NCBI GenBank assembly: GCA_049513715.1
Contig: JBEKVV010000001.1
Location: 672,001 to 736,000 of the forward strand
Reading direction: 5' to 3'
Length of the DNA: 64,000 nt
DNA from: Candidatus Bathyarchaeia archaeon
GTDB lineage: Archaea; Thermoproteota; Bathyarchaeia; 40CM-2-53-6
Part shown: piece by piece, positions 36,001 to 39,000 of the stretch
Layout: the number at the start of each line of letters is the position of its first letter
How positions within the stretch are numbered: position 1 is the stretch's first letter
Position numbers: made by a program

Positions 36001-39000
36001 GATGAATATGTTCCAGTTGAGAGCGCAGGGACCGTGTACACTTGCACCACGTGCAGAAAAGACCCTGAAGGAAATGACCTCCTGCATCCCATATCCATTG
36101 CTCTTGTCCGCTTTCCCTCAGCTCATGGGGGGATTGTACACAAGACCAAGACGCAAGTGGAGATCGGCGACAACGTACGTGCGGTATTCAAGGAGAAATC
36201 AAAGAGAACTGGATCCATATTAGACATCGAATACTTTGAAAAGAAAGAATAGGTCATTCCCGGCGCTCTTTCTTCACGCGCCCAGTGATGTGGTCAACGA
36301 TAGTCTTCAGCGATGTGCCGGGCCCGAAGTTCCCTGTAATCCCCAACTTCTCAAGTTTCGGTTTGTCCTCTTCGGGTATGATTCCGCCACCTACTAGCAA
36401 GATGTCGTGAGCGTTGTTCTCTTTGAGAGCCTTTGCTACCTTTGGGAAAGCAGTCATGTGGGCACCATTCAATAGACTCATGGCGACCACGTCGACGTCC
36501 TCGTCTATCGCCATTTGCGCGACTTGCTCGGGGCTAGCTAGTAACCCCGCGTATATTACTTCCATCCCTGCATCCCTGAGTGCCCTACACAGCACCAGAG
36601 CGCCCCTGTCGTGCCCGTTTGGCCGTTTTCTTACGCAAGCCCGGGCTTAGCGACGAGCACTCTAATTCTGTGTTGTTGTGACGTTTTGCTCATCGTCTTT
36701 GTTACTGAAATCTCCCGAACCTCCTCCTAGAATATTGATGGTTCCTTCCAATCGCCAAAAACCTCTCTTCCCACATCGATAATCTCTCCCAACGTGGCAT
36801 ATGATTTCACCGCTTTAAGCATTGGATAAATACAGTTAGAGTCCGGGTTCATGAAAGACCGTCTCAACTCTGCCAAGGCCTCTTTTACGGCCGTGGCGTC
36901 CCGACTCTTCCTCACTTCCTGCAAGCGTTCAATTTGCCTTGTTCTAGCTTTCTCTTCGATCCGCAAGGTCTTGATTGGGGAAGGCGCGTCCATTTTGTAG
37001 GCGTTAACACCGACGATCGTTCGTTTCTTGTCTTCCATTTCCCTTTGATATCTATAGGCAGTGTCAGCAATTTCTCTCTGTATGAATCCCGTCTTCAACG
37101 CAGCGAGAATACCGCCGAGTTCATCGATCTTAGCGAGATACTCGTACGTACGCTGTTCCATTTCATCGGTCAACCATTCCACATAATAAGCGCCGCCCAG
37201 GGGATCGATGACATCAGCCGCCCCAGTTTCCTCAGCCATTATCTGTTGAGTCCTGAGAGCTATCAACGCGGCTTCCTGAGTGGGCAGCGCCCAAGCTTCG
37301 TCGTACGAATTAGTGTGAAGTGATTGCGTGCCCCCCAGTATCGCGGCCAACGCTTCCACAGCTGTTCTGACAATGTTGTTAAGTGGTTGTTGCCAAGTCA
37401 AAGACGCGCCCGAGGTCTGCGTGTGAAATCGCATTAAGAGCGACCTCGGGTTCTTGGCACGGTATTTCTCTCTAAGAACTGTGCTCCAGATTCTGCGGGC
37501 CGCTCTGAATTTCGCTACTTCTTCAAAAAAGTCCATACCACAGTTGAAAAAGAAGGAGAGGCGCGGAGCAAAATCATCCACCTTCAATCCTGCTTCCAAC
37601 CCTAAGTCAATGTATGCGAACCCATCTGCCAGCGTAAACGCCAGTTCTTGGAGGGCGCTGGAGCCAGCCTCACGTATATGATAGCCGCTCACGCTGATGT
37701 AATTCCATAATGGCAGGTGTTTGGTTGAGTAAAGCATCATGTCTCGAATTATGCGAAGATGTGCTTCCGGAGGATACACCCACTCCTTCTGTGCCGCATA
37801 TTCTTTCAGAATATCAGTCTGCACAGTTCCACGCAGCCTGGCGGGTGAAATTCCATTTCTCTCCGCAACCGCAACATACATGCAAGTGAGAACAGATGCT
37901 GGAGCGTTAATGGTCATGGATGTGCTGACTTCATCCAGTGGAACCCCGTCAAGGATGACTTCCATGTCCTTCAAAGATGAAACCGAAACACCGCATTTTC
38001 CGACTTCGCCTTCGGCCCTCTGATGGTCAGCATCTACCCCGTACAGAGTTGGCATGTCGAATGCTATACTGAGACCCGTCTCTCCCTCCTTCAACAAATA
38101 CTTGAGACGCGCGTTAGTGTCTTCCGGAGTCCCGTAGCCGGAAAACATCCGCATGGTCCAAAGTCGGCCTCGATACATCGTCGGGTACACCCCCCGGGTG
38201 TATGGGTATTCACCGGGCATCCCCAATAGCGCTGAATAGTCATTGGATGCAACATCTGTCGGCGTATAGACCCGTTTTACGGCTATGCCTGAGGGATTTG
38301 TGACCTCGATTTTTCGCTCTTTGGATTTTGATGTCCACTTCCTAACTGTAGTGTTCTCCCATTGCTTAGCTCGTTTCGCAAGAAGACGCAGTTGTTTGGA
38401 ATTGTGGAGGCCCGCGTCCTTTCTTCGGGCATTCGAGATCTCCACCAGTTTCATTGCCCAGAAATTCCTCGATTTTCTAGATGACATGTGAAATCACGGT
38501 AAGATTGAAGGAGCTTCACGGAAGGCGACTATTTTTCTTTTGGGTAAGCTCAGTTACTTGCCACTCCATGCTCGAACTGGGCAACGCTATGGATGGTCTA
38601 ATTCGATCAACGAGTGTAGGACCGACAACAACCTAGATAAGCGAAGTCATAAAGGGAGCTTCGACGAGTCACGTCCAAACTTTAGAGTATAGCTAAGTCA
38701 TCAGGAGTCATGGTCCGTGCCTAAGGCTGAACCAATGCTAGGAGAAATGGTTCGGAAAGCCTTGCGAGGTGAGCGCCGCGCAATTTCCAGGCTAATGTCA
38801 ATCGCTGAAAACGACCCAAGCTCGCGAATTAGGATACTCTCACTTCTATACTGGCGTACGGGTAGAGCGCACATAATCGGAATTACGGGGCCACCAGGTT
38901 GTGGTAAGAGCACTCTGATTGCACAGCTCGCCAAAAGCTACAGTGCGAATGGGTCGACCGTGGGGATCGTTGCGGTTGATCCATCCAGCCAGATAACGGG

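What a model noticed while it worked through the whole genome (the two positions that open the first line are those of the whole stretch)
36254..36692. A 17-nt bulge-helix-bulge intron splits the cobalamin-binding DxHxxG motif of the methylmalonyl-CoA mutase small-subunit [...]
The B12-binding subunit gene (g00785) is called short because a 17-nt intron (C1:708619-708635, minus strand) lies inside the Asp codon of KPGLD-GHDRG. Its removal restores the motif and joins the true N-terminus. This is a new host gene for archaeal pre-mRNA introns.
Evidence so far: Reading frames in call 12; canonical BHB with a 4-bp core, 5-bp outer and 2-bp inner helix. 20 of 30 orthologous loci carry an intron at exactly this position, 16-23 nt long and variable in sequence, all with the 4-bp core paired; the two 18-nt ones hold an in-frame stop. 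The other 10 read KPGLDGHDRG unbroken. Introns occur in genera g1 and g5, which are sisters in the RpoB tree.
(Added by a program. Inside this text positions count along the whole contig: contig position 672,001 is position 1 of the stretch shown here. "Call 12" and the like, gene names such as g00115 and contig names such as C1 are that model's own, and its searches are not shown. The text may have been shortened before it was handed on; [...] marks where a part breaks off. The agent that wrote the report below was given it as the finding of a first reader that could run no searches.)

Follow-up and report, generated by a model that had tools for sequence, protein, structure and literature searches.

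The report
tRNA-type intron in B12 mutase gene
The gene for the vitamin-B12-binding subunit of an acyl-CoA mutase in this uncultured archaeon is split inside its key motif by a 17-base intron of the kind archaea normally cut out of tRNAs, so the enzyme can very probably be made only after its mRNA is spliced, a step so far published for the coding part of just one archaeal gene.

Summary
Confirmed. A 17-nt insert (window 36619-36635, minus strand) splits the Asp codon of the DxHxxG motif of the only B12-binding acyl-CoA mutase subunit and folds as a canonical bulge-helix-bulge (BHB). It sits at the same base in 21 of 43 family orthologues (two genera) and in 110 of 112 metagenome matches. All 90 distinct versions (15-23 nt, all three frame classes) pair the 4-bp core. 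Exon third-codon positions that pair are nearly fixed although other synonymous sites are saturated, and both exons are under purifying selection. New here: 89 of 90 introns carry an in-frame stop, at two different positions and using all three stop codons. The genome encodes a crenarchaeal-type two-subunit EndA and RtcB, and holds BHB-like inserts in cbf5, glyA and EF-2. No homing endonuclease lies next to the intron. Splicing is inferred, not shown: no RNA run was listed. In print I found only cbf5 (coding) and one Haloferax 5'UTR. This scan earlier noted similar introns in other genes (carB, rnhB, fbp, gatE, pcm, rtcB, EF-2), none in this gene.

The parts
36636..36693 (-). Exon 1 from the first ATG (19 codons + G of the Asp codon); may extend to an ATT at 36711
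   Evidence: over the 10 codons before the junction pN 0-0.12 vs pS 0.23-0.87 against 20 intron-bearing orthologues
36619..36635 (-). 17-nt BHB intron, phase 1 of the Asp codon of DxHxxG
36254..36618 (-). Exon 2: AC of Asp, GHDRG and the rest of the cobalamin-binding domain to TGA
   Evidence: TIGR00640 positions 14-131; PF02310 positions 11-115, only match in the genome; pN 0.045-0.144 vs pS 0.76-0.98
36638..36646 (-). 5' strand of the BHB in exon 1: outer helix GCCCG (36646-36642) and core GGCT (36641-36638)
   Evidence: Gly codon GGG 21 of 21 intron loci vs 4 of 22 intronless; Pro CCC 19 of 21 vs 0 of 22
36621..36624 (-). 3' strand of the 4-bp core inside the intron (GGCC)
   Evidence: only AGCC, GGCC, GGCT, AGCT in 90 distinct introns, all pairing with GGCT
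36613..36617 (-). 3' strand of the outer helix in exon 2 (CGGGC)
   Evidence: Asp GAC 21 of 21 vs 9 of 22; next Gly GGG 20 of 21 vs 2 of 22
36631..36633 (-). In-frame TAA inside the intron (ends the unspliced exon-1 frame)
   Evidence: in-frame stop in 89 of 90 distinct introns vs 10 and 5 of 90 in the other frames
36709..36724 (-). Shine-Dalgarno-like GGAGGT (36724-36719) and a possible non-AUG start ATT (36711-36709)
   Evidence: SD followed by in-frame ATC/ATT/ATA in 53 of 68 distinct early-stop-type loci; inference only
36727..38487 (-). Acyl-CoA mutase large (substrate-binding) subunit, directly upstream
   Evidence: TIGR00641, 745 bits; a second large subunit (51% identical) lies on contig C3
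38717..39682 (+). MeaB-type GTPase chaperone, divergent
   Evidence: TIGR00750, 324 bits

Best explanation
A true archaeal BHB pre-mRNA intron. The transcript folds the exon-intron borders into a bulge-helix-bulge; the two-subunit tRNA splicing endonuclease cuts after the second base of each bulge and RtcB joins the exons, rebuilding the GAC Asp codon of the cobalamin-binding DxHxxG motif. Unspliced mRNA gives only a ~20-residue peptide because of an in-frame stop that selection keeps inside the intron. Shown: position, structure potential, conservation pattern, presence of EndA and RtcB genes. Inferred: cleavage, ligation, and that the enzyme is made only from spliced mRNA. Origin inferred: one insertion into a pre-existing GC-rich exon hairpin in the ancestor of the g1/g4 operon, then vertical descent and one precise loss in the G182/G242 pair.
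For: Canonical geometry. 21 of 43 family loci, 13 of 15 in g1 and 8 of 8 in g4, same base. 110 of 112 metagenome matches with an unconstrained N{0,30} gap carry an insert; all 83 distinct ones pair the core; 90 distinct in total, 15-23 nt, all frame classes, 79 distinct loops. All 20 distinct 3n inserts contain an in-frame stop. Pairing wobble positions fixed while exon-2 pS is 0.76-0.98 and pN 0.045-0.144. Only one B12-binding subunit gene for two large subunits. EndA catalytic subunit closest to Aeropyrum/Sulfolobus enzymes with the Lys44-equivalent of the crenarchaeal loop, plus a beta-like subunit; intact RtcB. cbf5 in the same genome is split at the published TLD site by a 19-nt BHB-like insert, and in 29 of 30 family loci read.
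Against: No RNA evidence. In the window copy the fourth core pair is U-G with probability 0.32 and the MFE slips one pair; fold z-score is only -2.0. Kin are not independent, so the 21-vs-22 contrast overstates significance (17 of the 22 intronless loci are one genus). The 5' core strand never varies, so the core shows only one-sided changes, no compensatory ones. The small-subunit tree does not join g1 and g4, so a single origin is not shown.
Confidence: 0.92

Rival explanations
1. The gene is dead or makes a truncated protein from the GTG at 36595; the insert is a disruptive mutation inherited by descent.
For: A 113-aa ORF starts at GTG 36595; gene callers use it.
Against: That ORF lacks the whole DxHxxG motif; exon 1 stays conserved at protein level (pN 0-0.12) while synonymous sites are near saturation; a dead insert would not keep the 4-bp core in 90 of 90 versions; no other B12-binding subunit in the genome.
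Confidence: 0.02
2. Translational recoding: the ribosome frameshifts or hops over the insert (T4 gene 60-like bypassing, recalled) with the hairpin and the stop as signals, and no RNA cut occurs.
For: A stop follows one codon after the exon-1 border in 64 of 90 versions and sits in a hairpin; some intronless orthologues have Asn (AAC) for Asp.
Against: Inserts occur in all three frame classes (20, 32, 38 of 90), so no single frameshift works; I saw no matched take-off/landing codon in the window copy; in 25 versions the stop lies later; bypassing would not explain the exact 4-bp/3-nt BHB geometry.
Confidence: 0.03
3. The insert is a spliced intron but a mobile (homing) element spread by a neighbouring endonuclease, as earlier notes of this scan propose for carB, fbp and gatE introns.
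For: Patchy presence in the family; g1 and g4 not joined in the small-subunit tree.
Against: Within 1.5 kb the intron loci show only the large subunit, DUF35-type and thiolase genes; six unassigned ORFs had no NCBIfam hit. No copy outside g1/g4 in 401 class and 401 phylum genomes or 104 outside loci. Intron type tracks the genus (17-18 nt early-stop in g1, 19 nt late-stop in g4).
Confidence: 0.08

Closest known systems
cbf5 pre-mRNA BHB intron of Desulfurococcales and Sulfolobales (Yokobori et al. 2009, PMC2738675: first of six parts of the text plus passages read; Watanabe 2002 and Yoshinari 2006 seen only as cited there)
   Same: Short (16-44 nt there, 15-23 nt here), BHB-bordered, no ORF, placed between first and second base of a functionally key Asp codon after Leu (TLD there, GLD here), lineage-specific precise loss, misread by gene callers.
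   Different: Host is a metabolic cofactor-binding subunit, not an RNA-modifying enzyme; different archaeal class; splicing of cbf5 was shown on RNA, here not. Four cbf5 introns keep the frame per that paper; here every 3n intron carries a stop and 89 of 90 have an in-frame stop.
HVO_1309 5'UTR BHB intron of Haloferax volcanii (Schwarz et al. 2020, PMC7714728, passages read)
   Same: mRNA substrate of the tRNA splicing endonuclease.
   Different: Lies in the 5'UTR and does not break the reading frame; that paper names cbf5 as the only other mRNA case.
Archaeal tRNA/rRNA BHB introns cut by (alpha-beta)2 EndA with the Crenarchaea-specific loop (PMC3241643, passages read)
   Same: Same hBHBh' geometry; the spliced exons form a 5-bp stem with a 7-nt loop cut after its sixth base, like an anticodon arm; same enzyme type in this genome.
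   Different: In a coding sequence, so it is under codon constraint in the exons and stop-codon constraint in the intron; no look-alike donor intron found in G000 by one strict regex.

Membership tests
Archaeal BHB pre-mRNA intron (cbf5 type) | 4-bp central helix flanked by two 3-nt bulges at the exon-intron borders | tested here: met
   core paired in 90 of 90 distinct introns; outer helix 3-5 bp; inner helix 0-5 bp
Archaeal BHB pre-mRNA intron (cbf5 type) | Cut after the second base of each bulge restores the conserved protein | tested here: met
   gives KPGLDGHDRG as in intronless orthologues; intact L007 matches TIGR00640 3-130
Archaeal BHB pre-mRNA intron (cbf5 type) | Host encodes splicing endonuclease and RNA ligase | tested here: met
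   two EndA-family genes; RtcB 508-aa open frame
Archaeal BHB pre-mRNA intron (cbf5 type) | Spliced mRNA seen in vivo or cleavage by EndA in vitro | not testable with these tools
   no RNA holder listed; no bench work
Homing (endonuclease-linked) archaeal intron | Endonuclease gene inside or beside the intron | tested here: not met
   17 nt holds no ORF; flanks of 1.5 kb in 31 loci show no such gene; wider genome not searched
Group I / group II self-splicing intron | Ribozyme core of hundreds of bases | tested here: not met
   length 15-23 nt
Acyl-CoA mutase cobalamin-binding subunit (TIGR00640) | DxHxxG...SxL...GG motif (consensus as given in PMC4915002, passage read) | tested here: met
   after removal of the insert; exon 2 131 bits vs cut-off 57; PDB relatives 2yxb, 4r3u
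Methylmalonyl-CoA mutase (substrate-specific) | Substrate-determining residues of the large subunit / activity | not tested
   only family-level hits

The most novel reading that the evidence does not exclude
In this archaeal family mRNA splicing is a working layer of gene expression, not a one-gene oddity: at least four coding genes (mutase small subunit, cbf5, glyA, EF-2) need EndA/RtcB, and the in-frame stop kept in the intron is a functional part. It makes ribosomes terminate and clear the BHB so it can refold and be cut, which would turn splicing into a translation-coupled gate on the single B12-binding subunit shared by both mutases, an archaeal parallel to the stop-codon rule of short eukaryotic introns.
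Probability: 0.3. Interest if true: 0.85.

Novelty: new member of a known kind. Interest (0 to 1): 0.66.

Why it matters
For about twenty years cbf5 has been the only archaeal coding sequence in print with a spliced BHB intron (as far as my searches reach). A second host in carbon metabolism, with 90 natural variants, shows which bases selection guards (core, exon wobble positions, an in-frame stop) and gives a small, directly testable EndA substrate. Practically, gene callers truncate this subunit and delete its cobalamin-binding motif in two genera, so metabolic reconstructions would wrongly score their B12 mutases as broken; several other genes in the same genome look misannotated for the same reason.

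Tried and rejected
RNA: no RNA holder listed for window 34000-39000; this is no evidence either way. Spliced copies in the metagenome collection: 2 of 112 matches lacked the insert (L217, L234); L217 is at most 81% identical to any held locus and both group with intronless or outside lineages, so they are not spliced transcripts. Ab initio genome-wide scan for frame-restoring BHBs: 26 hits vs 27-37 for six decoy geometries and it missed this very intron, so it is uninformative. First homology scan also missed it, the second was too loose; the third (1205 alignments, 925 kb of 2.79 Mb against 1.71 Mb of G099) gave 6 candidates: this intron, cbf5 (two registers), glyA, and two I reject (a gene junction at C1 662208; an in-frame indel on C4 with no outer helix); decoys gave 1-2. 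It did not recover the EF-2 insert, and my check of why used a wrong frame, so the count of mRNA introns is a lower bound. Phylum pattern hits outside the family were chance: four read (reverse-gyrase-like and other ORFs), three show an intact motif in the matched text. Read-through fusion of large and small subunit: in frame across one TAG here, but spacing is not a multiple of three in many relatives; rejected. Donor intron: a strict look-alike regex found no tRNA source in G000; tRNA introns were not extracted as a control for stop content. Loci left out of the 21/22 count: L043, L045 (contig ends) and L044 (intronless, frameshift further down). Literature searches gave no report of an intron in this gene; subscription papers and bioRxiv supplements were not searchable.

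Full report
Observation. On the minus strand the cobalamin-binding subunit gene runs from an ATG at 36693 to a TGA ending at 36254. Seventeen bases, 36635-36619, lie between the G and the AC of the Asp codon in KPGLD-GHDRG. The called ORF starts at GTG 36595 and so lacks the whole DxHxxG motif; the motif consensus is as given in PMC4915002 (passage read). The borders form outer helix GCCCG/CGGGC, core GGCU/GGCC, bulges UG^C and AA^A, a 2-bp inner helix and a 6-nt loop. The fold is real but modest on its own: z = -2.0, and the U-G core pair has probability 0.32 against 0.87 for the other three. The case rests on comparison.

Distribution. Adding the remaining family loci, 21 of 43 readable orthologues carry an insert at this base: 13 of 15 in genus g1, 8 of 8 in g4, none in g2 (17), g3 (2) or g5 (1) (three loci left out, see Tried and rejected). 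None of 104 loci outside the family has one, and a gapped pattern found it only in g1 and g4 among 401 class and 401 phylum genomes. The class name Bathyarchaeia comes from earlier notes on this genome, not from a test of mine.

Selection on the structure. A metagenome scan whose gap was unconstrained gave 112 matches, 110 with an insert, 83 distinct. With the genome loci there are 90 distinct introns of 15-23 nt with 79 different loops. Their core strand is only AGCC, GGCC, GGCT or AGCT (45, 26, 10, 9), all of which pair with exon GGCT; these are one-sided changes, as the exon strand never varies. Exon third positions that pair are nearly fixed in intron-bearing loci and free in intronless ones: Pro CCC 19/21 vs 0/22, Gly GGG 21/21 vs 4/22, Asp GAC 21/21 vs 9/22, next Gly GGG 20/21 vs 2/22, while the Leu third base, which is bulged, varies. 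This holds although synonymous sites in exon 2 are saturated (pS 0.76-0.98, pN 0.045-0.144 against 20 orthologues); exon 1 is also conserved (pN 0-0.12). Relatedness inflates these contrasts, but the two intronless g1 members have also lost the fixed bases.

An in-frame stop is kept. 89 of 90 introns have a stop in the exon-1 frame, against 10 and 5 in the other frames and a mean of 28-39 (maximum 54) in shuffles. All 20 introns of length 3n have one. Two positions are used: bases 3-5 in 64 (TAA 31, TGA 21, TAG 12; TGG once, 4.4 expected) and a later codon in 25 (TGA 16, TAG 5, TAA 4). Early-stop introns take any length from 15 to 23; the others are only 16 or 19 nt, one codon apart, which keeps the late stop in frame. 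Frameshifting introns would meet a stop anyway, mostly within 7-59 codons, so the internal stop is not needed merely to prevent full-length protein. cbf5 inserts of the family often but not always have such a stop. That short eukaryotic introns show a similar rule is recalled, not checked. Why it is kept is inference: less junk peptide, or release of the ribosome so that the BHB can refold.

Machinery and company. The genome has two EndA-family genes: a catalytic subunit closest to Aeropyrum and Sulfolobus enzymes, with Lys at the Lys44 position of the Crenarchaea-specific loop, and a beta-like subunit (the loop's role from PMC3241643 passages); RtcB is intact. cbf5 is split near profile position 70 across the family by 19-23-nt inserts at the published TLD site in 29 of 30 loci read (the g4 core has one mismatch). 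A pairwise scan against G099 recovered this intron, cbf5 and a 33-nt stop-bearing insert in glyA, and a 28-nt insert in EF-2 noted earlier by this scan fits BHB geometry. The genome has one B12-binding subunit gene and two large subunits, so both mutases would depend on this splice.

History. In a 594-column operon tree the intronless G182/G242 pair (100/99) lies within g1 (100/100 against g4), whose base is unresolved; with g4 bearing the intron, one precise loss is simplest, and both genomes keep the cbf5 intron. g1 and g4 share the operon order, which g2, g3 and g5 lack, but the small-subunit tree alone does not join them. Among 104 outside loci, 14 already offer a 4-5-bp exon hairpin at this site, so these codons are a ready target; insertion by EndA/RtcB chemistry is inferred. 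No endonuclease gene was seen within 1.5 kb.

Comparison. The closest known case is the crenarchaeal cbf5 intron, also placed after the first base of a key Asp codon (PMC2738675); that paper notes predicted but unconfirmed introns in other coding genes. Schwarz 2020 (PMC7714728) lists cbf5 and a Haloferax 5'UTR as the only mRNA cases. Two further papers were checked by term only and added nothing. Eight searches found no report for a mutase gene. Earlier unchecked notes of this scan describe BHB introns in carB, rnhB, fbp, gatE, pcm, rtcB and EF-2, none in this gene.

Verdict. A real feature, very probably a spliced BHB pre-mRNA intron (0.92), a new host gene and lineage for a known, rarely seen kind, with a selected in-frame stop as its most unusual trait. 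RNA proof is missing.

Noticed in passing
G000 C1:415527-415545 (+), outside the window (locus L369): 19-nt BHB-like insert at the TLD^P site of cbf5; 19, 20 or 23 nt in 29 of 30 family loci read. Extends the published cbf5 intron to this lineage.
   Followed up: partly
G000 C7:59581-59613 (+), outside the window: 33-nt insert with in-frame TAG and BHB-like borders (core 4 bp, outer 1 bp) in a glyA/SHMT gene between RYAE and GW; 30-nt inserts at the same site in L417 and L421; 24 other loci read are intact.
   Followed up: partly
Like the glyA insert it reads K-A-stop when unspliced.
   Followed up: partly
window 36709-36724 (-): A conserved GGAGGT(G) sits about 7 nt before an in-frame ATC/ATT/ATA codon followed mostly by Ser in g1-type loci (53 of 68), with ATG or TTG at the same place in a few and no canonical start at all in 7; suggests a non-AUG start, here ATT 36711.
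   Followed up: partly
G000 C3:402546-404102 (+): Second acyl-CoA mutase large subunit (51% identical) with no B12-binding subunit of its own in the genome.
   Followed up: no
window 30377-36252: Three thiolase-type genes and three small zinc-ribbon/OB-type ORFs (DUF35-like, recalled) flank the mutase genes: an acyl-CoA degradation cluster.
   Followed up: no
L046, L063, L066: Some intronless orthologues have Asn in place of the motif Asp (NGHD or NSHD), and many other class members have DSHD or DDHD.
   Followed up: no
G000 genome: ARAGORN finds only 31 tRNA genes, most with odd intron calls, and one tRNA-Pyl call at C2 419817-419913 that may be a misread intron-bearing tRNA.
   Followed up: no
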